Below are positions 5,004 to 63,574 of a DNA stretch of 64,000 bases, in pieces. Source of the stretch: Escherichia coli (GTDB lineage Bacteria > Pseudomonadota > Gammaproteobacteria > Enterobacterales > Enterobacteriaceae); NCBI RefSeq assembly GCF_022846255.1, contig NZ_AP025682.1; one strand, written 5' to 3'. The notes beneath the pieces were generated by a model. That model made no database searches. It was not told the DNA's origin and saw nothing but the letters and a program-made list of their open reading frames with translations. How positions within the stretch are numbered: the first letter of the stretch is position 1; every line of letters begins with the position of its first letter. A program made the position numbers and the translations under genes.

Positions 5004-5063
5004 TTTTATTAAGAAAAGAACGAGATCATTGTTTAGAGTTGTATTTACACAACAGGAAATATT

Positions 5064-5939: not shown

Positions 5940-5945
5940 TCATTA

Positions 5946-5969
5946 TGCGGGTTTTAATTTATACCCGCA
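5946..5969 (+). terminator. Weak hairpin (7 bp stem TGCGGGT/ACCCGCA) just after the TauE-like gene
   Basis: Inverted repeat 5946-5952/5963-5969 read from sequence; no strong T-run follows, so may be an attenuator or mRNA-stability element rather than a terminator. Confidence 0.3.
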
Positions 5970-6044
5970 CACATTCTTTAATTAATGAAACCTGTAATAA
6001 CAGGATGGCATGAAATATTAGTTTTATATCTATGGAGATTATTT

Positions 6045-8081: not shown

Positions 8082-8126
8082 TCACATCCGCCCGTGGGGA
8101 AACTCACGGGCAAAGGGAGAACAACG

Positions 8127-9512
8127 ATGAGTCACATCACAACGGAAGATCCAGCAACTCTACGCCTGCCCTTTAAAGAGAAACTCTCTTACGGTATCGG
8201 CGATCTGGCCTCTAACATCCTACTGGATATCGGCACGCTTTATCTTTTGAAGTTTTATACCGATGTTCTGGGGCTGCCTGGCACCTATGGCGGCATTATC
8301 TTTTTGATTTCAAAATTCTTTACCGCCTTTACCGATATGGGTACCGGCATTATGTTGGATTCCCGACGCAAGATCGGTCCAAAAGGTAAGTTCCGTCCTT
8401 TTATTCTGTATGCGTCATTTCCGGTCACCCTGCTGGCGATCGCCAACTTTGTCGGCACACCGTTTGATGTCACCGGTAAAACGGTGATGGCCACCATCCT
8501 GTTTATGCTTTACGGACTGTTTTTCAGCATGATGAACTGCTCGTATGGCGCGATGGTCCCCGCTATTACTAAAAACCCCAACGAACGCGCCTCACTGGCG
8601 GCATGGCGTCAGGGTGGCGCTACATTGGGCCTGCTGCTTTGTACGGTGGGATTCGTGCCGGTTATGAATCTTATCGAGGGTAATCAGCAACTTGGCTATA
8701 TCTTCGCCGCCACGCTGTTTTCACTGTTCGGCCTGCTGTTTATGTGGATCTGCTATTCGGGCGTGAAAGAGCGTTATGTCGAAACCCAACCTACCAATCC
8801 GGCGCAAAAGCCTGGCTTGTTGCAATCTTTCCGCGCAATTGCGGGGAACCGCCCACTGTTCATTTTGTGCATTGCCAACCTCTGTACCTTAGGGGCGTTT
8901 AACGTCAAGCTCGCCATTCAGGTCTATTACACCCAGTACGTGCTTAACGATCCCATCCTGTTGTCATATATGGGATTTTTCAGCATGGGCTGTATTTTCA
9001 TCGGCGTGTTCCTGATGCCTGGTGCAGTCAGACGTTTTGGTAAGAAGAAGGTCTATATCGGCGGTCTGCTGATCTGGGTGCTGGGCGATCTGCTCAACTA
9101 TTTCTTCGGCGGCGGCTCGGTCAGCTTTGTGGCTTTCTCCTGCCTGGCGTTCTTTGGTTCGGCGTTTGTTAACAGCCTGAACTGGGCGCTGGTTTCTGAC
9201 ACCGTCGAGTACGGCGAGTGGCGCACCGGTGTGCGTTCAGAAGGTACGGTCTACACCGGTTTCACCTTCTTTCGCAAAGTATCTCAGGCGCTGGCAGGTT
9301 TCTTCCCAGGCTGGATGCTGACGCAAATTGGCTATGTGCCAAACGTCGCCCAGGCTGACCACACTATCGAAGGGTTGCGCCAACTGATCTTCATCTACCC
9401 AAGCGCACTGGCAGTAGTCACCATTGTGGCAATGGGTTGCTTCTACAGTCTGAACGAGAAGATGTACGTCCGCATTGTTGAAGAGATAGAAGCCCGTAAA
9501 CGCACGGCGTAA
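8127..9512 (+). CDS. yihP: GPH-family sugar:cation symporter (proposed DHPS exporter)
   Basis: Start at ATG 8127 (MSHITTEDPATLRL) after RBS AAGGGAGA; 12-TM melibiose-permease-like sequence; paralog of downstream yihO. Confidence 0.85.
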   Translation: MSHITTEDPATLRLPFKEKLSYGIGDLASNILLDIGTLYLLKFYTDVLGLPGTYGGIIFLISKFFTAFTDMGTGIMLDSRRKIGPKGKFRPFILYASFPVTLLAIANFVGTPFDVTGKTVMATILFMLYGLFFSMMNCSYGAMVPAITKNPNERASLAAWRQGGATLGLLLCTVGFVPVMNLIEGNQQLGYIFAATLFSLFGLLFMWICYSGVKERYVETQPTNPAQKPGLLQSFRAIAGNRPLFILCIANLCTLGAFNVKLAIQVYYTQYVLNDPILLSYMGFFSMGCIFIGVFLMPGAVRRFGKKKVYIGGLLIWVLGDLLNYFFGGGSVSFVAFSCLAFFGSAFVNSLNWALVSDTVEYGEWRTGVRSEGTVYTGFTFFRKVSQALAGFFPGWMLTQIGYVPNVAQADHTIEGLRQLIFIYPSALAVVTIVAMGCFYSLNEKMYVRIVEEIEARKRTA

Positions 9513-9554
9513 TTATAATAAACAACGCCCTGCGGGGCGTTATAAGGAGTGATT

Positions 9555-10958
9555 ATGTCTGACCATAATCCACTGACATTAAAACTGAATCTGCGGGAAA
9601 AAATCGCCTATGGTATGGGCGACGTCGGTTCGAATTTAATGCTTAGCATCGGCACTCTGTATCTCCTCAAATTTTATACCGATGAATTAGGGATGCCTGC
9701 TTACTATGGCGGGATTATCTTTCTGGTGGCGAAATTCTTTACCGCATTTACCGATATGCTCACCGGATTTTTACTCGACTCGCGGAAAAATATTGGACCT
9801 AAAGGAAAATTCAGGCCGTTTATTTTATACGCAGCGATTCCGGCGGCGTTAATTGCAACGCTCCAGTTTATCGCCACCACCTTTAGTTTGCCGGTTAAAA
9901 CGACGATTGCCACCGCACTGTTTATGATGTTTGGACTTTCATACAGTCTGATGAACTGCTCGTATGGCGCGATGATCCCGGCCATTACCAAAAACCCGAA
10001 TGAGCGCGCGCAACTCGCTGCTTACCGCCAGGGTGGTGCAACCATAGGGCTATTGATCTGTACCGTGGCGTTTATTCCTTTGCAGTCACTATTTTCTGAC
10101 TCCACCGTCGGCTACGCCTGCGCGGCACTGATGTTCTCCATTGGCGGCTTTATTTTTATGATGCTGTGCTACAGAGGTGTCAAAGAGCATTATGTGGACG
10201 CGACGCCAACCGGACATAAGGCCAGTATTCTCAAATCATTTTGCGCGATATTTCGTAATCCACCTTTGCTGGTATTGTGCATTGCTAACCTGTGTACCCT
10301 GGCGGCATTTAATATCAAACTGGCGATTCAGGTCTATTACACCCAGTATGTGCTGAATGATATTAACTTATTGTCGTGGATGGGATTCTTTAGTATGGGA
10401 TGCATTCTCATCGGCGTATTACTGGTGCCACTAACTGTAAAATGTTTTGGTAAAAAACAGGTTTATCTGGCTGGCATGGTGCTGTGGGCGGTGGGGGATA
10501 TCCTGAATTATTGCTGGGGCAGTAACTCATTCACTTTCGTCATGTTCTCTTGTGTCGCCTTTTTTGGCACGGCCTTTGTAAACAGCCTGAACTGGGCACT
10601 GGTACCAGATACCGTAGATTATGGTGAATGGAAAACAGGTATACGTGCCGAAGGTTCTGTTTATACCGGTTATACCTTCTTTCGTAAAATTTCAGCCGCA
10701 CTTGCTGGCTTCTTGCCCGGCATTATGCTGACGCAAATCGGTTATATTCCCAACATCGCGCAAAGCGATGCAACATTACAGGGTTTGCGTCAGCTCATTT
10801 TTATCTGGCCTTGTGCGCTGGCAATTATTGCTGCATTGACGATGGGGTTCTTTTACACGCTCAATGAGAAACGGTTTGCACTGATTATTGAGGAAATTAA
10901 CCAACGCAAAAATAAAGAAATCGAGACAGAAGAAAAAACGGCTTCCGTAACGTTATAA
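9555..10958 (+). CDS. yihO: GPH-family sulfoquinovose importer
   Basis: Start ATG 9555 (MSDHNPLTLKL) after RBS AAGGAGTG; 467 aa; strong similarity to yihP product. Confidence 0.85.
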   Translation: MSDHNPLTLKLNLREKIAYGMGDVGSNLMLSIGTLYLLKFYTDELGMPAYYGGIIFLVAKFFTAFTDMLTGFLLDSRKNIGPKGKFRPFILYAAIPAALIATLQFIATTFSLPVKTTIATALFMMFGLSYSLMNCSYGAMIPAITKNPNERAQLAAYRQGGATIGLLICTVAFIPLQSLFSDSTVGYACAALMFSIGGFIFMMLCYRGVKEHYVDATPTGHKASILKSFCAIFRNPPLLVLCIANLCTLAAFNIKLAIQVYYTQYVLNDINLLSWMGFFSMGCILIGVLLVPLTVKCFGKKQVYLAGMVLWAVGDILNYCWGSNSFTFVMFSCVAFFGTAFVNSLNWALVPDTVDYGEWKTGIRAEGSVYTGYTFFRKISAALAGFLPGIMLTQIGYIPNIAQSDATLQGLRQLIFIWPCALAIIAALTMGFFYTLNEKRFALIIEEINQRKNKEIETEEKTASVTL

Positions 10959-11025
10959 ATGTCAATAGCCGCTATTTCCATCCTGATGGGTGGCGGCCTC
11001 CCTACGTTTAAAAAATGGACTTATT

Positions 11026-11718
11026 ATGAAAAATATTAATGCAATAATTTTATTATCTTCTCTGACCTCTGCCTCGGTATTCGCTGGCGCATACGTCGAA
11101 AACAGGGAAGCATATAATCTCGCCTCCGATCAGGGCGAGGTTATGCTACGTGTGGGTTATAACTTCGATATGGGCGCGGGTATTATGCTAACCAATACCT
11201 ACACCTTTCAGCGAGAAGATTAACTCAAACATGGCTATAATGAAATTGAAGGTTGGTATCCTTTATTTAAACCTACCGATAAATTAACCATCCAGCCCGG
11301 TGGCTTAATTAATGACAAGAGTATCGGTTCGGGTGGTGCTGTTTATCTGGATGTTAACTACAAATTTACTCCGTGGTTTAACCTGACGGTGCGTAATCGC
11401 TATAACCATAATAATTACAGCTCTACAGATTTGAACGGCGAATTGGATAATAACGACACCTATGAAGTTGGCACCTACTGGAACTTTAAAATAACAGAAA
11501 AATTTTCCTATACATTTGAACCACATTACTTCATGCGAGTGAATGACTTTAATAGTAGCAACGGGAAAGATCATCATTGGGAAATCACTAACACCTTCCG
11601 TTACCGTATTAATGAACACTGGCTTCCTTATTTCGAATTGCGCTGGTTAGACCGCAACGTCGAGCCGTACCACCGCGAGCAAAACCAGATTCGTATCGGA
11701 ACGAAGTATTTCTTCTGA
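11026..11718 (+). pseudogene. ompL: outer membrane porin OmpL interrupted by an in-frame TAA stop at 11221-11223
   Basis: Signal peptide MKNINAIILLSSLTSASVFA then porin sequence; reading frame has TAA after ...TYTFQRED and continues in the same frame (LKHGYNEIEGWYPLFKPTDKLTIQPGG...YFF) to the normal end at 11718. Confidence 0.75.
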
Positions 11719-11728
11719 TGTAAAAATT

Positions 11729-11764
11729 CCTGATGCGATGCTGGCGCATCTTATCAGGTCTACA
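11729..11764. repeat. REP (repetitive extragenic palindromic) element
   Basis: TCCTGATGCGATGCTGGCGCATCTTATCAGGTCTAC resembles canonical E. coli REP consensus. Confidence 0.5.
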
Positions 11765-11770
11765 AAAGCC

Positions 11771-11802
11771 AAAAAAAACCTGCCATCGCTGGCAGGTTTT
11801 TT
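11771..11802. terminator. Bidirectional rho-independent terminator between convergent ompL and typA
   Basis: Hairpin CCTGCCA-TCGC-TGGCAGG flanked by A-run on the left and T-run on the right. Confidence 0.6.
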
Positions 11803-52829: not shown

Positions 52830-54257
52830 CTAGCGCGACTGCTGATTATATTCATCATCGCGTTGATAAGCTTCATCATTCGGCTGCTCCGGAACCGACC
52901 GAAGTCGATACTCTTCATCCTGGCTCACCGCCTGTTCAGCCAAATCCGGATTAATCTCGCGTTTAATTTCTACCCCTAAACCGCGAAACGCTTCTGCCTG
53001 CGCCAGCACATTTCCGCGACCTGAAGAGAGTTTTTTCATTGCCTGGCGATAGTTATCCTGCGCTTTGTCGAGACTTTGACCAATCGCGGACATGTCATCG
53101 ACAAACAAACGCATCTTGTCGTACAGCTTGCTGGCACGATCGGCGATTTGCTGGGCGTTGCGGCTTTGATGCTCATAACGCCACAGGTTGGCGATAGTGC
53201 GCAGCGCCACCAGCAGCGTAGTCGGGCTAACCAGCATGATATTGTTTTTCAACGCTTCGGTGATCAGCTCCGGCTGACGGTCAAGCGCCAGTAAAAAAGC
53301 GGGTTCAACGGGAATAAACATCAGCACGTAATCCAGAGTTCGCAGCCCCGGCAGCTGTTGATAATCTTTGCGTCCCAGCAAACGGATATGGTTACGTACC
53401 GACGCGATATGTTCCTGTAGCGCGCTTTCACGGGAGTAGTCATCTTCGGCGTTGAAATAGCGTTCATAGGCGACCAGCGTCATTTTGGCGTCGATCACCA
53501 CATCTTTTCCCTGCGGCAACCGCACGATGACATCCGGCTGCATCCGCGAGCGGGCGTCATTTTCGATGCTGACCTGGGTTTCATATTCATACCCTTCACG
53601 CAGACCGGAAGCCTCCAGCACCCGCGTCAATACTACCTCGCCCCAGTTGCCCTGGGTTTTATTGTCGCCTTTCAGCGCACGCGTCAGGTTGATCGCTTCC
53701 TGGGCCATCTGGGCGTTGAGTTGCTGGAGGTTGCGGATTTCGTGAGTCAGGGTATGACGTTCTTGGGCTTCTTTACCAAAGCTGTCCTGGACCTGACGGC
53801 GGAAACCATCCAGTTGTTCACGCAACGGCGACAAAAGACTGTTCAGACTCTGGCGATTTTGCTCATCAACCCGACGATTACTGTGTTCAAAAATACGGTT
53901 GGCAAGGTTTTCAAATTGCTCACTGAGGCGCTGTTCGCTGTTGATCATCTGGCGAATTTTATCGTCAGCGTGTTGCTGTGCGGCTTCCATCCGCGTGGTC
54001 ACTTCACGCAGATCGGCCTCCAGCGAGGTGTTAATACTTTGCAGGCTGCGCACTTCGTTATTGAGCAATTCACACTCTGCGCGCCAGTGCTCGCTTTGGG
54101 TAATTTGTTGTTTTGCCGCGCTTAACTCCGCGACCATCTCTTCACGTTCAGCTAATTGCTCGGCTTTTTGCTGCGCATGTTGATAACTGGCAAACAGCCA
54201 GCCAATTGCCACACCCACCAATGCAATAACTGCGTAAACCATGATTGAGAAATCCAC
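52830..54257 (-). CDS. rmuC: DNA recombination protein RmuC
   Basis: 475 aa; N-terminal TM, long coiled-coil, C-terminal RmuC domain. Confidence 0.92.
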   Translation of the reverse strand: MDFSIMVYAVIALVGVAIGWLFASYQHAQQKAEQLAEREEMVAELSAAKQQITQSEHWRAECELLNNEVRSLQSINTSLEADLREVTTRMEAAQQHADDKIRQMINSEQRLSEQFENLANRIFEHSNRRVDEQNRQSLNSLLSPLREQLDGFRRQVQDSFGKEAQERHTLTHEIRNLQQLNAQMAQEAINLTRALKGDNKTQGNWGEVVLTRVLEASGLREGYEYETQVSIENDARSRMQPDVIVRLPQGKDVVIDAKMTLVAYERYFNAEDDYSRESALQEHIASVRNHIRLLGRKDYQQLPGLRTLDYVLMFIPVEPAFLLALDRQPELITEALKNNIMLVSPTTLLVALRTIANLWRYEHQSRNAQQIADRASKLYDKMRLFVDDMSAIGQSLDKAQDNYRQAMKKLSSGRGNVLAQAEAFRGLGVEIKREINPDLAEQAVSQDEEYRLRSVPEQPNDEAYQRDDEYNQQSR

Positions 54258-54376
54258 AACGCCTCCTGACGCAACAACTTACCCGCACAAAATAGAATTG
54301 TGCTGTACAAACGTCCAGTTTGAAAGAAGTTTCCTGCGAGGCGCTACGCAAAACGATCGTTAATTTTCATTATTTT

Positions 54377-54412
54377 ATCCCACAATATGAGATGGAGTTT
54401 ATATTGTGGGAT
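54377..54412. promoter_or_regulatory. Perfect 12 bp inverted repeat (ATCCCACAATAT-N12-ATATTGTGGGAT): candidate operator for the downstream IclR-family regulator
   Basis: Arms 54377-54388 and 54401-54412 are exact reverse complements; located ~60 bp upstream of the regulator ATG in an AT-rich divergent promoter region. Confidence 0.5.
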
Positions 54413-54473
54413 ATATCACCTTTTCCCCACGTCATTATGTGGAACACTTCAGCAATATCATCAGGAGAAACGT

Positions 54474-55241
54474 ATGGCAGAAACCTCTTCAACCACCGCA
54501 GGCGCACAAACGTTATTACGTGGACTGGCGGTTCTTAATGCTGTTTATAACGGCTGCCATGACCTAAAAAGTATCGGCGAGTTCACCGGCACGACCCGGA
54601 GCACAACCCATCGTTTAGTCACCGTTCTGGTGGAACAACGCTACCTGCGCCATGTCCCAACGCAGGGCTACCAACTGGGTGCCAAACTGATCGAATTTGG
54701 TGCCAGAGCACTGGAAAGCACCTCGCTGTACGAAATTGCCCAGCCCGTTTTGCAACGCCTTGCCCGTTACACCCTGGACACCGTGCATCTGGGGATCGTT
54801 GAAGGCGACGAAGTGCTGTATCTGGAGAAGATCAACAGTCAGCGCGGGCTGGAAATGCGCTCACGCCCAGGCCATCGCATGCCACTGGCAATCACCGGCA
54901 TCGGCAAGGCATTGATCCTCAACCGAACAGAAGAAGAGTGGCGCACGCTGTTTAAGACCTGTGGTGATGAAACAAAACTGGGCACATTTATTCAGAACAT
55001 GCGTCGTTATGCCGCCAGTGGTTTTGCTTTTGATCTGGAAGAGAACGAGCCGACTATCCGTTGCGTTGCAGCGCCGGTTTACAACGCCCGGGATGAAATT
55101 GTGGCGGCTATTTCTGTCGCCAGTACCACCACGTATATGTCGCTGGCGCGTCTGGAAGAACTGGCACCTTACGTCAAATCCTGTGCAGAAGAGATATCCG
55201 CTGAACTGGGCTGGGGTAAGCACGTCCGCAAAGATAAATAA
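54474..55241 (+). CDS. IclR-family transcriptional regulator (KdgR-like)
   Basis: Start taken at ATG 54474 (RBS AGGAG 8 bp upstream): MAETSSTTAGAQTLLRGLAVLNAVYNGCHDLKSIGEFTGTTRSTTHRLVTVL...; N-terminal wHTH plus C-terminal effector domain; ~255 aa. Confidence 0.8.
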   Translation: MAETSSTTAGAQTLLRGLAVLNAVYNGCHDLKSIGEFTGTTRSTTHRLVTVLVEQRYLRHVPTQGYQLGAKLIEFGARALESTSLYEIAQPVLQRLARYTLDTVHLGIVEGDEVLYLEKINSQRGLEMRSRPGHRMPLAITGIGKALILNRTEEEWRTLFKTCGDETKLGTFIQNMRRYAASGFAFDLEENEPTIRCVAAPVYNARDEIVAAISVASTTTYMSLARLEELAPYVKSCAEEISAELGWGKHVRKDK

Positions 55242-55264
55242 ACCATGATTAAAGGAAACGACTA

Positions 55265-56269
55265 ATGCCGGGAGCACCCTCATTTATTGCCCTGGACTGG
55301 GGAACGTCATCGCTTCGGGCATGGCGTTTTGGCGAATCACCAAATCCACAAGAAAAACGTGAATTCCCCTGGGGGATCATGAAATTACCCTCCCAGGCAG
55401 CAACACGTGAGGACGCTTTCCACGATACGTTTTTACGTGTCTGCGGCGACTGGCTGGCACAAACCCCATGCCCGGTACTGGCTTGCGGCATGCTCGGCAG
55501 TGCGCAAGGGTGGCAATCAGCAGCTTATTTACCTTGCCCGGTCACTCTCGAGGGTCTGGCGAAGCAGTTGACGCCTGTTATCCACCAGCAGCAGACAATG
55601 CTGCATATCATTCCTGGCGTGATTAAAGAAGGTGAAATGCCCGAAGTGATGCGTGGCGAAGAAACACAAATCTTCGGTGCTATCTCGATGGAACCGGCCC
55701 TGCAAAACGCGATCCATCAGGGTATGCCAGTGCTGATAGGCTTACCCGGCACACATGCGAAATGGGCAGTAGTTGAAAACAACACCATTACCGATTTCCG
55801 AACCTTTATGACGGGCGAGTTATTTGATGTTTTATCCCGCCATTCGATTCTCGGTGCCACCATGCATCCTGGAGATGAACCGCACTGGGATGCCTTCACC
55901 CACGGGCTGACAGCAGCACAAGAGCATCATCAGACCGGATTATTATCGACGCTGTTTTCGACCCGTTCGCGCCTGCTGACCAGTAATCTTACGTCGTCCT
56001 CGCAGGGGGATTACCTTTCCGGATTACTGATAGGCCATGAATTATGTGGTCTGGCATCCAGTTTGCTACGTGATTTACCCGCCACAACACCGATCGCCTT
56101 AATCGGTAGCGCAAATCTGAACAGCCGCTATTCACAAGCATTCAGCCACGTTTTTCCCGACAGACAGATACACGCCATTCCTAATGCCACTGAACAGGGA
56201 TTATGGCGAATCGCCCACGCTGCCGGGTTACTGTCCACCAACGCCAGGGAATGTACCCATGCCATTTAA
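55265..56269 (+). CDS. 2-dehydro-3-deoxygalactonokinase family protein (DgoK paralog)
   Basis: 334 aa; motifs shared with remembered E. coli DgoK: IALDWGTSSLRAW, MRGEETQIFGA, LPGTHAKW, DFRTFMTGELFDVL, DYLSGLLIGHE. Confidence 0.8.
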   Translation: MPGAPSFIALDWGTSSLRAWRFGESPNPQEKREFPWGIMKLPSQAATREDAFHDTFLRVCGDWLAQTPCPVLACGMLGSAQGWQSAAYLPCPVTLEGLAKQLTPVIHQQQTMLHIIPGVIKEGEMPEVMRGEETQIFGAISMEPALQNAIHQGMPVLIGLPGTHAKWAVVENNTITDFRTFMTGELFDVLSRHSILGATMHPGDEPHWDAFTHGLTAAQEHHQTGLLSTLFSTRSRLLTSNLTSSSQGDYLSGLLIGHELCGLASSLLRDLPATTPIALIGSANLNSRYSQAFSHVFPDRQIHAIPNATEQGLWRIAHAAGLLSTNARECTHAI

Positions 56270-56888
56270 TACGCTTTTGCAAAAAACCGGGTTAGTCGCC
56301 ATTTTACGCGGCGTGAAACCGGATGAGATTGTCGCCATCGGTGAAAAACTGTACGCCGCCGGATTCCGCCTGATTGAGATTCCTATGAACTCGCCGGAGG
56401 CGTTGCAAAGTATCAGTATACTGCGCGACGCCCTGCCTAAGGACTGCCTGGTCGGAGCCGGAACTGTGCTTTCGGTAGAGCAGGTGGTTGCGGTTAAAGA
56501 GGCTGGGGGCCAGATTATCGTGATGCCGCATTGCGATACTGCGGTGATCCGTCGCGCCCGTGCGCTGGGTATGTATTGTGCGCCTGGCGTCGCCACGCCC
56601 ACCGAAGCCTTTGCTGCCATTGAACATGGTGCTAATGCCATCAAGCTGTTCCCGGCTGAACAAATTACGCCAGAAGTTACCAAAGCCTGGCGTGCGGTTA
56701 TTCCACAATCCGTTCCGATGTTACCGGTTGGCGGTATCACACCGGAAACCATGGCGCGTTATCTGAGCCACGGCGCAAACGGCTTTGGCCTCGGTTCTGC
56801 GCTATATCGCCCCGGCATGACGCCAGAGCAAGTCTATGAAAATGCAGTACTGTTTATGAACGCATGGAACAATTTAAATAGCAACTAA
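56259..56888 (+). CDS. 2-dehydro-3-deoxy-6-phosphogalactonate (KDPGal/KDPG) aldolase family protein (DgoA paralog)
   Basis: Start at ATG 56259 overlapping kinase stop (ATGCCATTTAA); MPFNTLLQKTGLVAILRGVKPDEIVAIGEKLYAAGFRLIEIPMNSPEALQS...GAGTVL...; strong similarity to remembered DgoA. Confidence 0.8.
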   Translation: MPFNTLLQKTGLVAILRGVKPDEIVAIGEKLYAAGFRLIEIPMNSPEALQSISILRDALPKDCLVGAGTVLSVEQVVAVKEAGGQIIVMPHCDTAVIRRARALGMYCAPGVATPTEAFAAIEHGANAIKLFPAEQITPEVTKAWRAVIPQSVPMLPVGGITPETMARYLSHGANGFGLGSALYRPGMTPEQVYENAVLFMNAWNNLNSN

Positions 56889-56912
56889 CTGATAAATAAG
56901 GATATAAAAGCA

Positions 56913-57887
56913 ATGATAAAACATCTTACCTTACCGAAAAAAATGGCTGCAATGGTACTTCTTGCAGGCGCTGCCCTCAGCATTGCGCCTGTACAGGCAG
57001 CCTCCTGGCCAACCAAACAGATCGAGTTAGTCGTTCCCTACGCTGCCGGAGGCGGTACGGATCTGGTTGCCCGTGCCTTTGCTGATGCCGCCAAAAACCA
57101 TTTACCCGTCAGCATCGGGGTTATCAATAAACCTGGCGGAGGCGGTGCTATCGGCCTGAGTGAAATCGCCGCTGCCCGCCCTAACGGTTACAAAATTGGT
57201 TTAGGCACGGTTGAACTGACCACCCTTCCCAGCCTCGGAATGGTGCGTTTTAAAACCAGCGACTTTAAACCCATTGCCCGTCTGAATGCGGATCCGGCTG
57301 CTATCACAGTCCGTGCCGATGCGCCGTGGAATAGCTATGAAGAATTTATGGCTTACTCCAAAGCGAATCCCGGAAAAGTACGCATTGGTAACTCAGGCAC
57401 CGGAGCTATCTGGCATCTGGCGGCAGCTGCACTGGAAGACAAAACGGGCACAAAGTTTTCTCATGTCCCGTATGACGGCGCAGCCCCTGCCATTACAGGC
57501 CTGTTAGGCGGGCACATTGAAGCGGTTTCCGTAAGCCCAGGAGAAGTTATCAACCATGTGAATGGCGGCAAGCTGAAGACACTGGTAGTGATGGCGGATG
57601 AGCGAATGAAAACCATGCCTGACGTCCCGACGTTAAAAGAGAAAGGCGTTGATCTCTCCATCGGCACCTGGCGCGGCCTGATTGTGTCGCAAAAAACGCC
57701 GCAGGATGTGGTGGATGTTCTGGCAAAGGCAGCAAAAGAGACGGCTGAAGAGCCTGCATTCCAGGATGCACTGCAAAAGTTGAATCTCAACTATGCATGG
57801 CTTGACGCTGCCAGCTTCCAGACCCAAATCAGCGAACAGGAAAAGTACTTTGACGAGTTGCTGACTCGCCTGGGCCTGAAAAAATAA
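56913..57887 (+). CDS. tripartite tricarboxylate transporter (TTT) periplasmic substrate-binding protein, TctC/Bug family
   Basis: 324 aa with signal peptide ...AALSIAPVQAASWP; Bug-family motifs VPYAAGGGTD, KPGGGGAIG. Confidence 0.8.
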   Translation: MIKHLTLPKKMAAMVLLAGAALSIAPVQAASWPTKQIELVVPYAAGGGTDLVARAFADAAKNHLPVSIGVINKPGGGGAIGLSEIAAARPNGYKIGLGTVELTTLPSLGMVRFKTSDFKPIARLNADPAAITVRADAPWNSYEEFMAYSKANPGKVRIGNSGTGAIWHLAAAALEDKTGTKFSHVPYDGAAPAITGLLGGHIEAVSVSPGEVINHVNGGKLKTLVVMADERMKTMPDVPTLKEKGVDLSIGTWRGLIVSQKTPQDVVDVLAKAAKETAEEPAFQDALQKLNLNYAWLDAASFQTQISEQEKYFDELLTRLGLKK

Positions 57888-57900
57888 ACCTGAGGTACGG

Positions 57901-58410
57901 TTGATGAACACAAAACAGTCTGTTGCTCAACTCGCCGTACCGCACCGCAAGCGCCTTTCATCAACGATGGTGGTGGCGCTGTTACTTTGTGTGGTTGCTG
58001 GCGCGGTGATGATTAATGCCGCTGATTTTCCAGCAACTGCCATTGAAACGGATCCCGGTGCAAGTGCCTTCCCTACCTTCTATGCCTGTGCCCTGATTGT
58101 GCTCGCTGTCTTGCTGGTGATACGCGATCTTTTGCAGGCAAAACCAGCCTCTTGCGCCAACGCACAGGAAAAACCGGCATTCAGGAAAACAGCAACAGGA
58201 ATTGCGGCAACCGCGTTTTATATTGTGGCGATGAGCTACTGCGGTTATCTCATTACTACTCCTGTTTTCCTCATCGTCATTATGACGTTGATGGGCTACA
58301 GGCGATGGGTACTCACACCGGGTATTGCGCTGCTGTTAACGGCAATCCTCTGGTTGCTGTTTGTCGAAGCGTTACAGGTGCCATTGCCTGTCGGCACATT
58401 TTTCGAATAA
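57901..58410 (+). CDS. TTT small membrane subunit (TctB-like)
   Basis: 169 aa, 4 predicted TM helices, positioned between TctC-like and TctA-like genes. Confidence 0.7.
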   Translation: MMNTKQSVAQLAVPHRKRLSSTMVVALLLCVVAGAVMINAADFPATAIETDPGASAFPTFYACALIVLAVLLVIRDLLQAKPASCANAQEKPAFRKTATGIAATAFYIVAMSYCGYLITTPVFLIVIMTLMGYRRWVLTPGIALLLTAILWLLFVEALQVPLPVGTFFE

Positions 58411-58422
58411 CAGGGGCCAGCA

Positions 58423-59913
58423 ATGTTTGAAAGTGAACTTTTAACTCAGGGTTTTTCGACATTACTCAATAATCCTCAGGCGCTGCTGTTTGCCACTTTT
58501 GGGGTGATGCTGGGTATTGTGATTGGCGCTTTGCCTGGTCTGACAGCGACCATGGGTGTGGCGATTTTGCTGCCTTTCACCTACGGCATGGAGCCTGTTT
58601 CTGGATTGTTGATGATTTGCGGCGTCTTTTTTGGTGGCGTCTACGGTGGTTCTATCACCGCAATTTTGCTCAAAATTCCCGGAACGCCTGCCGCCGCAGC
58701 CACCGCTATTGATGGTTATGAGCTGACGAAACAGGGAAAAGCAGGGCTGGCATTGAGTGCCGCCACGTTCTCTTCCTTTAGTGGCGGAACGCTCAGCATT
58801 ATCGTGCTGATGTTTCTCTCTCCGGTACTTGCCAGTTGGGCGCTGAAATTTAGTGCCTCGGAGTCCTTCGCCCTGGCAACCTTCGGACTGAGCATTATTG
58901 CCAGTATTTCCGGTGAGTCGCTGATTAAGGGGCTGATTGCCGGGGTTGGCGGATTGCTGATCGCAACGATAGGCCTTGATCCAATGGGCGGTTTTCCACG
59001 GTTTACAGGTGGATTTGTGGAGCTGATGAATGTGCCATTTATCCCGGTGATGATTGGTTTATTTGCTGCTTCAGAAGCATTCCGCTCTATGGAGCAAAAC
59101 CAGCAAATTCGTCGGGGCGCGAAGGTGGCTATCGGCAGTCTGTTACTGCCCTGGCAAACACTACGCCGCATCGCATTAACCATTTTGCGCTCATCAGGAT
59201 TAGGGGTTTTTATCGGCATGATCCCCGGTGCGGGGGCGGATATTGCAGCTTTTGTTGCCTATAACGAAACTCGTCGTTTCAGTAAGACACCAGAAAACTT
59301 TGGTAAGGGTGAAATTAAAGCTGTGGCCTCCTGTGAGGCAGGCGCGAATGGCTGCACCGGTGGCGCATTGTTACCTATGCTGACGCTGGGGATCCCTGGC
59401 GATGCGGTAACCGCCATCATGCTGGGCGCGTTAACGTTACAGGGAATGCAACCAGGCCCGCTGATGTTTACCGACCACGGCGATATGGTTTATACACTGT
59501 TTGTCGGCATGATCTTTTGTTACTTCATGCTGCTAGTTCTTGGACTGCTCTCTTTGAAAGTCATCGGTAACGTGGTGAAGATCCCCGGCAATATTCTCAC
59601 ACCGATGATCCTCGCACTTTGTGTGGTCGGGACTTATGCGTTGAACAATAGCCTTTTTGATGTTGGCATTATGCTGATTGCAGGCGTGGTGGGCTATTTC
59701 ATGCAGAAAGGAGGATATCCGGCATCACCCGTAGTGCTGGCATTGATTATGGGGCCAATGGCGGAAAGTAATTTTCGCCGTGCGCTGTCGCTTTCTGGTG
59801 GGTCACTCGACTTTCTGTATACCCGACCGATCACTCTGGCATTGCTAACTCTGGCAGCCTTTACGCTACTGACGCCAATAATCCGCAAAATAATGCGTTT
59901 ACGGCGTCAGTAA
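58423..59913 (+). CDS. TTT large permease subunit (TctA-like)
   Basis: 496 aa polytopic membrane protein with duplicated-domain architecture typical of TctA. Confidence 0.8.
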   Translation: MFESELLTQGFSTLLNNPQALLFATFGVMLGIVIGALPGLTATMGVAILLPFTYGMEPVSGLLMICGVFFGGVYGGSITAILLKIPGTPAAAATAIDGYELTKQGKAGLALSAATFSSFSGGTLSIIVLMFLSPVLASWALKFSASESFALATFGLSIIASISGESLIKGLIAGVGGLLIATIGLDPMGGFPRFTGGFVELMNVPFIPVMIGLFAASEAFRSMEQNQQIRRGAKVAIGSLLLPWQTLRRIALTILRSSGLGVFIGMIPGAGADIAAFVAYNETRRFSKTPENFGKGEIKAVASCEAGANGCTGGALLPMLTLGIPGDAVTAIMLGALTLQGMQPGPLMFTDHGDMVYTLFVGMIFCYFMLLVLGLLSLKVIGNVVKIPGNILTPMILALCVVGTYALNNSLFDVGIMLIAGVVGYFMQKGGYPASPVVLALIMGPMAESNFRRALSLSGGSLDFLYTRPITLALLTLAAFTLLTPIIRKIMRLRRQ

Positions 59914-59920
59914 CTGATAT

Positions 59921-59947
59921 CGCTCCCCGAAGTTGGGGAGCGTTTTT
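59921..59947 (+). terminator. Rho-independent terminator after the tctA-like gene
   Basis: Hairpin GCTCCCCGAAGTTGGGGAGC followed by GTTTTTTTATTT; lies in the 34 bp gap before the convergent udp stop. Confidence 0.6.
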
Positions 59948-60712
59948 TTATTTCAGCAGACGACGCGCCGCTTCCACCACGATTTTCACCGCATGGCTTT
60001 CGGTTTGTTTCATCGTCTCAGCATTCGGGATCTCTTGCTGGGTGCGGTTAACGATAACCCCCGCTACCATACCGGCACGCAGGCCCTGACTTGCACACAT
60101 GGTCAGCAGGGTTGCAGATTCCATTTCATAGTTCATTACGCCCATCGCCTGCCACTCTTCCATAGAACCTTTAAAGTGACGAACTACGCGACCAGAGTAA
60201 GTATCGTAACGTTCCTGACCAGGGTAGAAGGTATCAGAAGAAGCTGTCACGCCAACGTGAGTCGTCGCGCCAATGGATTTCGCAGCTTCAACCAGCGCAG
60301 TCGTACATTCGAAATCAGCGACAGCCGGGAATTCCAGCGGTGCGAAGTGCAGGCTCGCACCATCCAGACGAACAGACGCCGTGGTAACCAGGACATCGCC
60401 AACATTAATATGCGGCTGAATAGCGCCCGTTGTGCCGATACGCAGGAAGGTGCGAATGCCCAGCTGTGCCAGCTCTTCAACAGCAATAGAGGTAGACGGG
60501 CCGCCGATACCGGTAGAGCAGACGATAACAGGTTTACCATCCAGCTCTGCACGCCAGGTGGTGAATTCGCGATGAGATGCCAGCTTAACCGGCTTATCCA
60601 TCAGCGCGGCGATCTTTTCCACACGATCCGGGTCGCCAGGGACGATGGCAAGCGTAGCCCCTTGTAAATCGTTTTTAGTGAGGCCGAGATGAAAAACATC
60701 AGACTTGGACAT
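59948..60712 (-). CDS. udp: uridine phosphorylase
   Basis: Start taken at [44 protein letters not shown]; PNP/UDP family. Confidence 0.95.
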
Positions 60713-60973
60713 ATACAACTCCTCTGTGAATCGGTTTAGTCAGAAGAAGCAAAAAGACACTTTACCGAAGGGTTTAACATTTTTTCGTGATACTCATCAC
60801 CATGACGAAAATGCGTTGCATAAATTTACCCGCCAAAAGTGATGCAAATCACATAAATCACTCTTCATTCTGCAGGACTGCATAAAAGATGAGCCGATTC
60901 AGGCAATGTGATTTGTTGCATGCTGACTATAGTTAACATTGCGCAACATTTTTATAAGGGTACGGAGAATACC

Positions 60974-62039: not shown

Positions 62040-62708
62040 ATGACGCAATCCATTTTTCAGGCTCAACCCTTTGAATTACCTTTTGATCCGCGCACAACTG
62101 CACTGGTCATGATCGACATGCAGCGTGACTTTGTCGAAGCAGGGGGCTTCGGTGAGGCACTGGGCAATGATGTTTCACTGGTACGCACGGCTATCGCACC
62201 ATGTACAGAGGTGCTGGCAGCCGCACGTCAAAAAGGAATTATGGTTATTCATACTCGTGAAGGCCATCGTGCAGACTTAAGCGACTGCCCGCCAGCCAAA
62301 CTGACGCGCGGCGGAAAAACCTTTATTGGTGAACCAGGACCGATGGGACGCATTCTGGTCAGAGGTGAAGCAGGTCATGACATCATTCCTGAACTGTACC
62401 CGGTGGCAGGCGAACCGGTGATTGATAAGCCTGGCAAAGGCGCGTTTTATCAAACCGACTTACATCTGATTTTGCAAAACCACGGTATCAAGACGCTGAT
62501 AGTTTGTGGTGTTACAACCGAAGTTTGCGTAACCACCACCGTGCGCGAAGCAAATGATCGTGGCTATGAATGCATTATCCCGGAAGATTGTGTCGGCTCC
62601 TATTTCCCGGAATTCCAGAAATACGCCCTCGAGATGATCAAAGCACAAGGTGCCATTTTCGGTTGGGTTACTGATTCCAAAGCCATTATTGCAGGCCTGG
62701 AAGGCTAA
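62040..62708 (+). CDS. isochorismatase-family cysteine hydrolase (RutB-like amidohydrolase)
   Basis: 222 aa; RBS ACAGGAGA; catalytic-triad contexts MIDMQRDF (Asp), DKPGKGAFYQT (Lys), GVTTEVCVTTT (Cys); resembles remembered RutB ureidoacrylate amidohydrolase. Confidence 0.8.
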   Translation: MTQSIFQAQPFELPFDPRTTALVMIDMQRDFVEAGGFGEALGNDVSLVRTAIAPCTEVLAAARQKGIMVIHTREGHRADLSDCPPAKLTRGGKTFIGEPGPMGRILVRGEAGHDIIPELYPVAGEPVIDKPGKGAFYQTDLHLILQNHGIKTLIVCGVTTEVCVTTTVREANDRGYECIIPEDCVGSYFPEFQKYALEMIKAQGAIFGWVTDSKAIIAGLEG

Positions 62709-62713
62709 CACCG

Positions 62714-63574
62714 ATGGTACAGGTTACGCTTTGCGCATCGTCGTTGGGATATCTTTTCCCGCAGAATGAAACGCAAGATTTACGTCTACATAGCGCTTTT
62801 AAACATGCGGTAAATCTGTATTCAGACGCGGGAACATTCATCACTCTGTTGTGTGCGCAAACGTATCTGAATCTCCCTGATGCAGCCAGAGTCTGGCTAC
62901 CTGAATGTTGGGACTGGCGAAGAGAGATTGCCCATTCAGATCCCATTCAGTTAACCCCAGGCTTACTGCGGACACCTCGATTTTGTGTGGCGCTCGAAAA
63001 CGCAACGCTCTGGCAGTCGCCATTTGTGGGGGGAATGCTGACACTTGAGGCATTCCCTTTGGTTTTCCAGCACTACCCAACGATGGCATCGCAACGGCTT
63101 TTATTTTGTCTGGAACATAACGTTCAAAGCACATTGCACCTGCCGGATAGTCTCACGCACCAGGGATTAGCGATTATGGAGCATCCAGATGCGCTGGAAC
63201 GCCAGGTGCCACAACTGATCGGCTTTGGTAAAGGCTTAACGCCCGATGGAGATGACTATTTGTTGGGCTATCTGGCAGCACTCTGGTTATGGCAACTCCC
63301 TGCACCACTTGCCGATCATCAATACCGGTTGCAGCAGGTAATTGATCAACATGCGCACAACACCACGGATATCAGTCGTCATTATCTGGAGCGTGCGCTT
63401 CAGGGACATTTTTCAGAACCGATTTGCCAGTTACTCGCACAACTGGTTGGGAGTGCATCGGCAATGACAATCGCATCCTGTGCAGAACAGGTCATGCAAT
63501 TTGGCGCAACGTCAGGAGTAGATTGCCTTGCAGGAATGCTGCATGGCTTTCGAACCCTGAACACCATGAATTGA
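62714..63574 (+). CDS. DUF2877-like protein (AllH/YlbF/YahE-type partner of FdrA-like proteins)
   Basis: 286 aa starting 6 bp after the hydrolase stop (translationally coupled); motif GKGLTPDGDDYLLGYL; family assignment from size and position before an FdrA-like gene. Confidence 0.55.
   Translation: MVQVTLCASSLGYLFPQNETQDLRLHSAFKHAVNLYSDAGTFITLLCAQTYLNLPDAARVWLPECWDWRREIAHSDPIQLTPGLLRTPRFCVALENATLWQSPFVGGMLTLEAFPLVFQHYPTMASQRLLFCLEHNVQSTLHLPDSLTHQGLAIMEHPDALERQVPQLIGFGKGLTPDGDDYLLGYLAALWLWQLPAPLADHQYRLQQVIDQHAHNTTDISRHYLERALQGHFSEPICQLLAQLVGSASAMTIASCAEQVMQFGATSGVDCLAGMLHGFRTLNTMN

What the first reader, a model, noticed from the sequence alone, without database searches (positions are those of the whole stretch)
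54258..59947. Strain-specific 5.7 kb catabolic operon between rmuC and udp: IclR regulator, DgoK-like kinase, DgoA-like aldolase, TctCBA transporter
In K-12 as I recall it, udp and rmuC are adjacent. Here six co-directional, tightly spaced genes (gaps of 23, -11, 24, 13 and 12 bp) sit between them on the opposite strand, with their own upstream palindrome and their own terminator. The gene content resembles the dgoRKADT galactonate operon but differs in three ways: an IclR-type rather than GntR-type regulator, no dehydratase, and a tripartite tricarboxylate transporter in place of an MFS permease. I know of no characterised pathway with this composition; it looks like a self-contained uptake and catabolism module for an unidentified acidic sugar derivative.
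Basis: partly seen in the sequence, partly recalled or inferred. Interest (0 to 1): 0.78.

Follow-up and report, generated by a model that had tools for sequence, protein, structure and literature searches.

The report
Accessory keto-deoxy sugar-acid uptake operon
A six-gene operon found in about a quarter of E. coli genomes (absent from K-12) combines a binding-protein-dependent acid importer with the last two enzymes of galactonate breakdown. It is a real, previously noticed but untested nutrient-scavenging module, not a new kind of system.

Summary
Six co-directional genes lie between rmuC and udp: an IclR regulator, a DGOK-family kinase, a KDPGal-type aldolase and TctC/TctB/TctA. The gaps, the palindrome and the terminator are as described. 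K-12 has 43 bp at this site.

It is not strain-specific. The islet is in 1452 of 5426 complete E. coli genomes, all at 99% identity or more. A 2012 paper on the neighbouring B2-associated tkt1 island noted it as an "islet of 6 ORFs with unknown functions". I found no experimental characterisation.

The IclR regulator is not an oddity. Regulator, kinase and aldolase are 43-61% identical to those of Pseudomonas, Achromobacter and Burkholderia galactonate/galactose clusters. They share an operator, TCCCA-N5-TGGGA, which is the core of the E. coli palindrome.

What is new relative to those clusters is that dgoD and dgoT are replaced by tctCBA. This cassette recurs in at least ten genera, never with a dehydratase. 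Brevibacillus couples a 66%-identical binding protein to a non-homologous KDG-kinase-like enzyme and an Eda-type aldolase.

Best reading: direct uptake of 2-keto-3-deoxy-D-galactonate, then phosphorylation and cleavage. The main rival is D-galactonate uptake relying on chromosomal DgoD. It is a variant of a known kind, of modest interest.

The parts
54354..59949 (+). Islet-specific DNA (5596 bp) that stands in place of 43 bp of the K-12 rmuC-udp spacer
   Evidence: megablast shares only query bases 1-96 (window 54258-54353) with K-12, O157 and 3973 other genomes. Junctions were read directly. No flanking direct repeats, integrase or RNA gene. GC 0.48-0.55, no compositional break.
54376..54413 (.). 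Operator candidate: perfect 13-nt inverted repeat TATCCCACAATAT-N12-ATATTGTGGGATA. Its left part, TCCCACAATATGAGA (54378-54392), matches the TCCCA-N5-TGGGA motif with one mismatch.
   Evidence: for the inverted repeat; the same 15-bp motif lies about 110 bp upstream of dgoK in about 55 Pseudomonas, Achromobacter and Bordetella dgo loci, and upstream of the IclR gene in Phytobacter, Brenneria and Roseomonas. The best -10-like hexamer, TATATT (54400-54405), lies inside the repeat. The consensus scan found no + strand promoter.
54474..55241 (+). IclR-family transcriptional regulator (255 aa), first gene of the operon
   Evidence: RefSeq annotation of the identical islet. NCBIfam best hits BhcR, KdgR and PcaR, all below their cut-offs. 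50-56% identical to the IclR genes of Pseudomonas and Burkholderia dgo clusters.
55265..56269 (+). DGOK-family 2-keto-3-deoxy-galactonate kinase (334 aa)
   Evidence: Pfam PF05035 E=4e-89 over the full model. PDB 3R1X and 3T69, 2-oxo-3-deoxygalactonate kinases, E about 1e-37. 35% identical to K-12 DgoK. 43-50% identical to Pseudomonas and Burkholderia DgoK. The DWGT(S/T) motif is conserved.
56259..56888 (+). KDPGal-type class I aldolase (209 aa), overlapping the kinase gene by 11 bp
   Evidence: NF006600 at 321.7 bits against a cut-off of 207. 46% identical to E. coli DgoA, PDB 2V81. Equivalents of R14, E37, K126 and V154 and the beta-1 strand L-V-A-I-L are of the KDPGal type. Those selectivity sites are taken from PMC4915726.
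56913..57887 (+). TctC/Bug periplasmic substrate-binding protein (324 aa) with a Sec signal peptide (…APVQA|AS)
   Evidence: PF03401 recorded for the cluster representative P0001, 98% identical. PDB 4X9T at 336 bits, uncharacterised. PDB 25HK at 217 bits, the Vibrio TTT-C that binds unsaturated alginate oligosaccharides.
57904..58410 (+). TctB small membrane subunit (168 aa; alternative TTG start at 57901)
   Evidence: RefSeq annotation. PF07331 recorded for the orthologues.
58423..59913 (+). TctA large membrane permease subunit (496 aa)
   Evidence: RefSeq annotation. PF01970 recorded for the orthologues. 90% identical to the Phytobacter orthologue.
59921..59949 (+). Intrinsic terminator: CGCTCCCCGAAGTTGGGGAGCG followed by T7
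   Evidence: 9 pairs, 7 G-C, loop of 4. It lies 8 nt after the TctA stop and abuts the udp stop codon.

Best explanation
The islet is a lineage-specific accessory operon that imports a 2-keto-3-deoxy-hexonate, most likely 2-keto-3-deoxy-D-galactonate (KDGal), and feeds it into glycolysis in two steps.

Proposed mechanism:
1. The periplasmic TctC protein captures the acid and delivers it to the TctB/TctA membrane unit. This would be a high-affinity secondary transporter.
2. The DGOK-family kinase phosphorylates C6.
3. The KDPGal-type Schiff-base aldolase cleaves the product to pyruvate and D-glyceraldehyde 3-phosphate.
4. The IclR-family protein, encoded as the first gene, binds the TCCCA-N5-TGGGA-type palindrome that overlaps the promoter region. 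A pathway intermediate releases it. KDGal is the likely effector, by analogy with KdgR and KDG.

Shown here: gene families, operon anatomy, orthology of regulator, kinase, aldolase and operator with non-enteric dgo clusters, KDPGal-type selectivity residues, and recurrent dehydratase-free cassettes.

Inferred: the transported substrate, the effector, repressor versus activator mode, and co-transcription of the six genes.
For: Families.

Orthology with galactonate clusters: in 80 loci found with the kinase alignment, Pseudomonas, Achromobacter and Bordetella show dgoK-dgoA-dgoD-dgoT plus an IclR gene. Burkholderia and Caballeronia show IclR-dgoK-dgoA-SDR-ABC-SDR-SGL. The islet's IclR, kinase and aldolase are 43-61% identical to these. 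On neighbour-joining trees the enterobacterial TTT-linked kinases and aldolases sit beside these groups, while K-12 DgoK and DgoA are outgroups.

Shared operator: TCCCA-N5-TGGGA about 110 bp upstream of dgoK in about 55 loci, and upstream of the IclR gene in E. coli, Phytobacter, Brenneria and Roseomonas. The chance expectation is about 0.005 per 150-bp window.

Stereochemistry: all 13 DGOK-linked TTT-module aldolases carry the KDPGal signature, L-[IV]-A-I-[LM] plus Val154 (sites from PMC4915726).

No dehydratase needed: the cassette IclR-DGOK-aldolase-TctCBA recurs without any dehydratase in E. coli, Phytobacter, Enterobacter, Brenneria, Rhodoferax, Azospirillum, Roseomonas, Uliginosibacterium and Martelella. 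Cohaesibacter carries a decayed copy. Flanking genes are otherwise unrelated. In clusters that use the DgoT permease, dgoD is present.

Non-orthologous displacement: Brevibacillus couples a 66%-identical binding protein and TctBA to a PfkB KDG/KDGal-kinase-like gene and an Eda-type (Thr) aldolase, again with no dehydratase. In every version the transporter is paired directly with a keto-deoxy-acid kinase.

Maintenance: 1452 genomes at 99% identity or more, with all six products named in RefSeq for the sampled hits. tctA of this islet appears as a differentially expressed transcript in an EPEC RNA-seq table.
Against: No binding, transport, growth or expression data exist for the islet itself.

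Burkholderia and Caballeronia galactose clusters also lack dgoD although their pathway needs it. So a missing dehydratase does not prove that it is dispensable.

E. coli already has DgoD, so D-galactonate would work as a substrate.

An in-silico study assigned a similar IclR-TTT-dgoK cluster to D-galactonate.

A natural gut source of free KDGal is not established.

The accessory SDR in three alpha- and beta-proteobacterial versions resembles DEH reductases, which make KDG and not KDGal. This reading does not explain that.

The consensus scan found no sigma-70 promoter on the + strand.
Confidence: 0.5

Rival explanations
1. High-affinity D-galactonate scavenging. The TTT system imports D-galactonate. 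The chromosomal dgoRKADT operon, induced through DgoR, supplies the dehydratase DgoD. The islet kinase and aldolase add capacity, or are simply passengers of the transferred cassette.
For: The regulator, kinase, aldolase and operator are orthologous to those of bona fide galactonate operons that contain dgoD and dgoT. Leyn et al. predicted D-galactonate for an IclR-TTT-dgoK cluster (PMC5507952). E. coli K-12 carries dgoD. Burkholderia-type clusters show that dgoD can be encoded elsewhere.
Against: None of eleven TTT-linked contexts contains a dehydratase, whereas DgoT-linked operons do. The cassette moves between classes as a unit and would be useless in hosts without dgoD. Brevibacillus pairs the same transporter type with a KDG kinase and Eda and has no gluconate, altronate or mannonate dehydratase. 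Duplicating kinase and aldolase but not dehydratase is hard to rationalise.
Confidence: 0.3
2. Uptake of a related six-carbon keto-acid that other microbes release from polysaccharides. Candidates are 4-deoxy-5-hexosulose uronates such as DEH, KDG itself, or another aldonate that gives KDGal on dehydration (D-talonate, D-gulonate, D-idonate). Host enzymes would do any missing step.
For: In Rhodoferax, Roseomonas and Azospirillum the cassette has a divergent SDR. The Roseomonas copy scores 315-367 bits against Sphingomonas A1 DEH reductases (PDB 3AFM, 4W7I, 4TKL). The three SDRs are 61-72% identical to one another. The second-closest solved binding protein binds unsaturated alginate oligosaccharides (25HK). 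Enterobacter adds an Fe-alcohol dehydrogenase and a second DGOK paralogue.
Against: The E. coli islet has no reductase or lactonase. DEH reduction yields KDG (4S), whereas the module aldolases carry the KDPGal (4R) signature. This stereochemical argument is my own derivation from the known structures. 25HK is only about 40% identical.
Confidence: 0.15
3. A silent or decaying remnant with no current function in E. coli.
For: No phenotype has been reported. No consensus promoter was found. A decayed copy exists in Cohaesibacter, where the kinase is reduced to a 51-aa remnant.
Against: All six ORFs are intact, with good spacing and a Shine-Dalgarno sequence. There is 99% identity or more across 1452 genomes, with all products annotated and none flagged as pseudogenes in the region examined. 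Catalytic residues are conserved. A transcript was detected.
Confidence: 0.05

Closest known systems
E. coli dgoRKADT D-galactonate operon (lower De Ley-Doudoroff pathway)
   Same: It has a DGOK-family kinase followed by a KDPGal aldolase, with overlapping genes. The end products are the same, pyruvate and glyceraldehyde 3-phosphate. The catalytic and stereoselectivity residues of the aldolase are the same.
   Different: The proteins are only 35% (kinase) and 46% (aldolase) identical. The islet has no dehydratase DgoD and no MFS permease DgoT. Its regulator is IclR-type, not the GntR-type DgoR, and shows no similarity to it.
Pseudomonas/Achromobacter/Bordetella dgoK-dgoA-dgoD-dgoT clusters with an IclR-family regulator, and Burkholderia/Caballeronia IclR-dgoK-dgoA-SDR-ABC-SGL galactose clusters
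   Same: The regulator, kinase and aldolase are orthologous (43-61% identity). The operator is the same, TCCCA-N5-TGGGA, upstream of the first gene.
   Different: dgoD and dgoT (or the ABC importer with dehydrogenase and lactonase) are replaced by tctCBA. In the islet the regulator is the first gene of the operon.
KdgR regulon of enterobacteria (kdgT, kdgK, eda)
   Same: The logic is the same: an IclR-family regulator, a transporter for a free 2-keto-3-deoxy-hexonate, a kinase and an aldolase, with no dehydratase. KdgR is the second-best NCBIfam hit of the regulator (129 bits against a cut-off of 275).
   Different: The C4 epimer differs (KDG versus KDGal). The kinase is PfkB rather than DGOK, the aldolase is Eda (Thr161) rather than Val-type, and the permease is KdgT rather than TTT. 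The KdgR regulon is scattered, not a single operon. The regulator scores below the KdgR cut-off, so it is not a member.
Tripartite tricarboxylate transporters: Salmonella TctCBA (citrate), Bordetella Bug proteins, Vibrio sp. C42 TTT-C (PDB 25HK)
   Same: The three components and their order TctC-TctB-TctA are the same. The binding protein has the TctC fold family (4X9T 336 bits, 25HK 217 bits, BugD 167 bits).
   Different: The ligand is unknown. The closest solved relative, 4X9T, is deposited only as an uncharacterised UPF0065 protein. The Vibrio protein binds oligosaccharides and is about 40% identical.
Predicted GalR(IclR)-TTT-dgoK locus of Salinivirga fredricksonii HL-109 (Leyn et al. 2017, PMC5507952)
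   Same: An IclR regulator, a TTT transporter and dgoK are clustered. The locus was assigned in silico to a sugar acid of the galactonate pathway.
   Different: That study predicted D-galactonate as both substrate and effector, within a De Ley-Doudoroff locus. It was not tested experimentally, and its sequence was not compared here.
'Islet of 6 ORFs between udp and rmuC' in APEC O1 (Li et al. 2012, PMC3349570)
   Same: It is the same object at the same chromosomal site, next to the tkt1 island. The tkt1 island also begins in this window after ysgA.
   Different: That paper gave no gene identities or function.

Membership tests
dgo-type (De Ley-Doudoroff lower pathway) gene cluster | 2-keto-3-deoxygalactonate kinase of the DGOK family (PF05035) | tested here: met
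   Pfam E=4e-89 over the full-length model. PDB DgoK homologues at E about 1e-37.
dgo-type (De Ley-Doudoroff lower pathway) gene cluster | KDPGal aldolase with the Schiff-base Lys, the catalytic Glu and the KDPGal-type selectivity sites (beta-1 A11/I12, Val154) | tested here: met
   NF006600 at 321.7 bits against a cut-off of 207. R14, E37, K126 and V154 and the L-V-A-I-L strand are conserved. The sites are as defined in PMC4915726.
dgo-type (De Ley-Doudoroff lower pathway) gene cluster | D-galactonate dehydratase (DgoD, enolase superfamily) in the cluster | tested here: not met
   tblastn with K-12 DgoD finds nothing in the window or in any TTT-linked locus, but finds it in 48 DgoT-linked loci.
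dgo-type (De Ley-Doudoroff lower pathway) gene cluster | DgoT MFS galactonate permease | tested here: not met
   No DgoT homologue in the islet. tctCBA occupies that place.
dgo-type (De Ley-Doudoroff lower pathway) gene cluster | Enzymatic activity on KDGal and KDPGal | not testable with these tools
   Requires enzyme assays.
IclR-type regulators of non-enteric dgo clusters | HTH_IclR + IclR_C protein orthologous to those encoded beside dgoK-dgoA | tested here: met
   50-56% identity over more than 50% of its length to the IclR genes of Pseudomonas, Achromobacter and Burkholderia dgo loci. The family is named in RefSeq.
IclR-type regulators of non-enteric dgo clusters | Palindromic operator TCCCA-N5-TGGGA upstream of the regulated operon | tested here: met
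   54378-54392 TCCCACAATATGAGA (one mismatch), inside a perfect 13-nt inverted repeat. Actual binding was not tested.
KdgR (NF011671) equivalog | Score above the curated cut-off of 275 bits | tested here: not met
   129 bits. It works like KdgR but is not a member.
Tripartite tricarboxylate transporter (TTT) | Three components TctC (PF03401), TctB (PF07331) and TctA (PF01970) encoded together | tested here: met
   RefSeq names for the identical islet. Precomputed Pfam hits for the 98%-identical TctC and for the orthologous TctB and TctA. TctC matches six different solved TTT binding proteins. I did not run Pfam on E. coli TctB or TctA myself.
Tripartite tricarboxylate transporter (TTT) | Exported binding protein (signal peptide) | tested here: met
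   The N-terminus MIKHLTLPKKMAAMVLLAGAALSIAPVQA|AS was read from the translation. PDB alignments start at residue 29.
Integrative genomic island / mobile element | Integrase or transposase, tRNA or att site, flanking direct repeats, deviant composition | tested here: not met
   Only six metabolic genes. No flanking repeats. No RNA gene. GC is like the flanks.

The most novel reading that the evidence does not exclude
This TTT clade is a dedicated importer of free 2-keto-3-deoxy-hexonates and their close relatives (KDGal, KDG, possibly DEH-type 4-deoxy-hexosulose uronates). These are intermediates normally regarded as strictly intracellular. The cassette would then let its hosts, including the E. 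coli lineage that carries it, cross-feed on keto-deoxy acids leaked or released by polysaccharide- and galactose-oxidising neighbours. That would be a private nutrient niche that K-12-type strains lack.
Probability: 0.35. Interest if true: 0.55.

Novelty: new variant of a known kind. Interest (0 to 1): 0.35.

Why it matters
Accessory carbon-source modules are one way in which E. coli lineages partition the gut niche. This islet sits beside the B2-associated tkt1 island and is conserved in 27% of complete genomes. A defined substrate would therefore add a testable metabolic trait to that lineage. More generally, it would give the first physiological substrate for a widespread clade of TTT binding proteins. 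It would also show whether free 2-keto-3-deoxy sugar acids are exchanged between microbes. If the substrate turns out to be plain D-galactonate, the islet is a redundant high-affinity uptake system and of local interest only.

Tried and rejected
Literature. They yielded only the 2012 mention of the islet, the 2017 in-silico prediction and the 2026 Vibrio TTT paper. None characterises the islet. The DgoR paper PMC6351737 is not held.

Cooper's 1978 finding is quoted from memory and was not verified: K-12 cannot take up 2-oxo-3-deoxygalactonate unless the KDG permease is derepressed.

Mobile-element reading rejected. There are no repeats, integrase, tRNA or Rfam hits, and no GC break.

NCBIfam gave no model for the kinase, TctC, TctB or TctA. 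The accessory SDRs hit dozens of generic SDR models and no decisive one. The SGL protein matches only regucalcin-type lactonases.

Monophyly of the TTT-linked genes. The neighbour-joining trees show two separate TTT-linked groups, enterobacterial and alpha/beta-proteobacterial, with the DgoD-linked groups between them. No simple 'specialised subfamily' argument can be made.

Uronate origin for D-KDGal. I considered that the DEH-reductase-like SDR might point to a uronate origin. By my own stereochemical derivation, DEH gives KDG and the pectin/glycosaminoglycan product DKI would give L-KDGal. Neither gives D-KDGal, so this remains unexplained.

The sigma-70 consensus scan found no + strand promoter.

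Phylogroup membership of the 1452 genomes was not determined directly. B2 is only suggested by the islet's position next to the B2-associated tkt1 island.

Full report
1. OBSERVATION

- An IclR-family regulator at 54474-55241. The longer ORF from 54387 would run through the palindrome. RefSeq uses 54474, which has AGGAG 7 nt upstream.
- A 334-aa kinase at 55265-56269.
- A 209-aa aldolase at 56259-56888, overlapping the kinase gene by 11 bp.
- TctC at 56913-57887.
- TctB at 57904-58410 (alternative TTG start at 57901).
- TctA at 58423-59913.

rmuC (52830-54257) and udp (59948-60718) flank the block on the other strand. A perfect 13-nt inverted repeat lies at 54376-54388 / 54401-54413. A strong intrinsic terminator lies at 59921-59942 and is followed by T7.

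In K-12, rmuC and udp are neighbours. Reading the junctions shows that 5596 bp (54354-59949) replace 43 bp of K-12. Those 43 bp contain K-12's own GGCCGA...TCGGCC hairpin. The right-hand boundary lies at the udp stop codon, so Udp here ends ...LLK instead of ...LL.

There are no flanking direct repeats, no integrase, no RNA gene and no compositional break. The islet does not look like a site-specifically integrated element.

2. DISTRIBUTION AND PRIOR KNOWLEDGE

megablast against 5426 complete E. coli genomes finds the whole islet in 1452 (27%), all at 99% identity or more. The other genomes, including K-12, O157:H7 and O111:H8 strains, share only the first 96 bp.

RefSeq already names all six products.

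Li et al. 2012 (PMC3349570) described the tkt1 island between ysgA and metE, which they found mainly in B2 ExPEC. [quoted passage not shown] The window carries the start of that tkt1 island too.

So the object is lineage-specific rather than strain-specific, and it has been seen before. My ten full-text searches found no experimental work on it. An EPEC RNA-seq table lists its tctA as a differentially expressed transcript.

3. WHAT THE PROTEINS ARE

Kinase: Pfam DGOK at E=4e-89. It is 35% identical to K-12 DgoK.

Aldolase: it passes the NCBIfam KDPGal-aldolase model (321.7 bits against a cut-off of 207) and is 46% identical to E. coli DgoA, PDB 2V81.
- PMC4915726 confirms that the beta-1 strand (A11/I12 versus P19/V20) and V154 versus T161 set the opposite facial selectivity of KDPGal and KDPG aldolases.
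- The islet enzyme has L-V-A-I-L, R, E, K and Val. This is the KDPGal pattern.

Binding protein: it has a signal peptide. Its closest solved relatives are 4X9T (336 bits, about 58% identity, deposited as uncharacterised) and 25HK (217 bits, about 40%). 25HK is the Vibrio sp. C42 TTT-C, which binds unsaturated alginate oligosaccharides.

4. COMPARATIVE GENOMICS

(a) Relatives of the kinase. A scan of 100,044 species genomes with an alignment of kinase orthologues returned 80 loci. tblastn with reference proteins shows two architectures.
- Pseudomonas, Achromobacter and Bordetella carry dgoK-dgoA-dgoD-dgoT with an IclR gene. Their DgoD and DgoT are about 60% and 55% identical to those of K-12.
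- Burkholderia, Caballeronia and Paraburkholderia carry IclR-dgoK-dgoA followed by an SDR, an ABC sugar importer, a second SDR and an SGL lactonase.

The islet's regulator, kinase and aldolase are 43-61% identical to these proteins. That is closer than to K-12 DgoK and DgoA. The IclR regulator is therefore the normal regulator of non-enteric dgo clusters.

(b) The operator. The motif TCCCA-N5-TGGGA, usually TCCCAATATATGGGA, lies about 110 bp upstream of dgoK in about 55 of those loci. It also lies upstream of the IclR gene in Phytobacter (perfect match), Brenneria, Roseomonas (two perfect sites) and E. coli (54378-54392, one mismatch, embedded in the 13-nt inverted repeat). A random 150-bp stretch would carry such a site with probability of about 0.005.

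(c) The cassette. IclR-DGOK-aldolase-TctC-TctB-TctA recurs as a unit.
- Phytobacter massiliensis has it at the same chromosomal site next to udp, with proteins 55-90% identical.
- It is also in Enterobacter hormaechei, Brenneria roseae, Rhodoferax fermentans, Azospirillum thermophilum, Roseomonas (Acetobacteraceae AT-5844), Uliginosibacterium and Martelella.
- Cohaesibacter has a decayed copy.
- Flanking genes are unrelated.

None of these contexts contains a dehydratase.

(d) Non-orthologous displacement. Brevibacillus joins a 66%-identical binding protein and TctBA to a PfkB kinase and an aldolase, again without a dehydratase.
- The kinase's best match is the bifunctional KDG/KDGal kinase model.
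- The aldolase passes the Eda model and carries Thr at the selectivity site.

5. MECHANISM

What is constant across all versions is the sequence transporter, then keto-deoxy-acid kinase, then aldolase, under an IclR regulator. This is the logic of the enterobacterial KdgR/kdgT/kdgK/eda system, applied to the C4 epimer.

I therefore favour direct import of 2-keto-3-deoxy-D-galactonate, phosphorylation, and cleavage to pyruvate and glyceraldehyde 3-phosphate. KDGal would also be the likely effector of the regulator (confidence about 0.5).
- Shown: gene families, anatomy, orthology, the operator, selectivity residues and the dehydratase-free recurrence.
- Inferred: the substrate, the effector, repression and co-transcription.

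From memory and unverified: Cooper (1978) reported that K-12 cannot use 2-oxo-3-deoxygalactonate unless the KDG permease is derepressed. If so, the islet would confer a new growth substrate.

6. RIVALS

(i) D-galactonate uptake relying on the chromosomal DgoD (about 0.3). The orthology with true galactonate operons supports this. So does the 2017 in-silico prediction for a similar cluster (PMC5507952). So does the fact that Burkholderia-type clusters also keep dgoD elsewhere.

(ii) A related acid (about 0.15). In Rhodoferax, Roseomonas and Azospirillum the cassette has a divergent SDR.
- The Roseomonas copy scores 315-367 bits against the Sphingomonas A1 DEH reductases, and the three SDRs are 61-72% identical to one another.
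- In two of the three organisms a regucalcin-like SGL gene follows TctA.
- DEH reduction gives KDG, not KDGal. This conflicts with the KDPGal-type aldolase signature and remains unexplained.

(iii) A silent remnant (about 0.05). Conservation argues against this.

7. COMPARISON, NOVELTY AND VERDICT

The islet works like a KdgR-type keto-deoxy-acid regulon. By descent it is a Pseudomonas/Burkholderia-type dgo cluster in which dgoD and dgoT were exchanged for a TTT transporter.

It fails two defining features of a complete galactonate operon (dehydratase and DgoT), so I do not file it as one. It meets the tests for a DGOK kinase, a KDPGal aldolase, an IclR-type dgo regulator with its operator, and a TTT system.

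It is a new variant of a known kind. It is real, conserved, previously noticed and annotated, and functionally untested. Interest is modest (0.35). It would rise if the transporter proves to import free keto-deoxy sugar acids, because that would define the ligand of a widespread TTT clade and a lineage-specific nutrient niche in E. coli.

Noticed in passing
window 59948-59953: udp is one codon longer than in K-12 (…LLK* instead of …LL*). The right boundary of the islet falls at the udp stop codon: K-12 TTA (stop) reads TTT here, and a new TAA follows from islet DNA.
   Followed up: yes
window 62040-63574 (and beyond the window end): After ysgA, two ORFs (a cysteine hydrolase family protein and a DUF2877 protein in the RefSeq annotation of L001) stand where K-12 has metE. 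This is the start of the 16-kb tkt1 island described in B2 ExPEC (PMC3349570). The window therefore carries two separate accessory insertions within 8 kb.
   Followed up: partly
L003/L011 (Phytobacter massiliensis) 4546-11801: The same six-gene cassette sits at the syntenic site next to udp, but directly after ubiE. No rmuC gene is called between them. Protein identities to E. coli range widely, from 55% (kinase) to 90% (TctA).
   Followed up: no
L007 4512-5288 and 11184-12098; L094 4754-5527 and 11369-12286; L009 4360-5157: In Rhodoferax, Roseomonas and Azospirillum the cassette has a divergent SDR. The Roseomonas copy scores 315-367 bits against Sphingomonas A1 DEH reductases, and the three SDRs are 61-72% identical to one another. 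In two of the organisms a regucalcin-like SGL gene follows TctA. A KDG-forming reductase beside a KDPGal-type aldolase is stereochemically puzzling.
   Followed up: partly
L005 3079-5258 and 11239-12003 (Enterobacter hormaechei): This version of the cassette adds a divergent pair: an Fe-alcohol dehydrogenase and a second, very distant DGOK paralogue (21% identical). It also has a second IclR gene downstream that is 61% identical to the E. coli regulator.
   Followed up: no
L092 8125-8280 (Cohaesibacter): The kinase gene of the cassette is reduced to a 51-aa remnant, while the regulator, aldolase and TctCBA remain. An IS21 helper gene lies nearby. This looks like a decaying copy.
   Followed up: no
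window 54258-54353 versus other E. coli: In 335 complete genomes the 96-bp rmuC-proximal spacer is only 80-90% identical (against about 96% in K-12-like genomes). This suggests a third allele of this intergenic site. I did not look at what lies there.
   Followed up: no
L002 3097-3139 (K-12): The 43 bp that K-12 has in place of the islet contain a GGCCGA-ACGCG-TCGGCC hairpin between the convergent ends of rmuC and udp. In islet carriers the islet's own terminator takes that position next to udp.
   Followed up: partly
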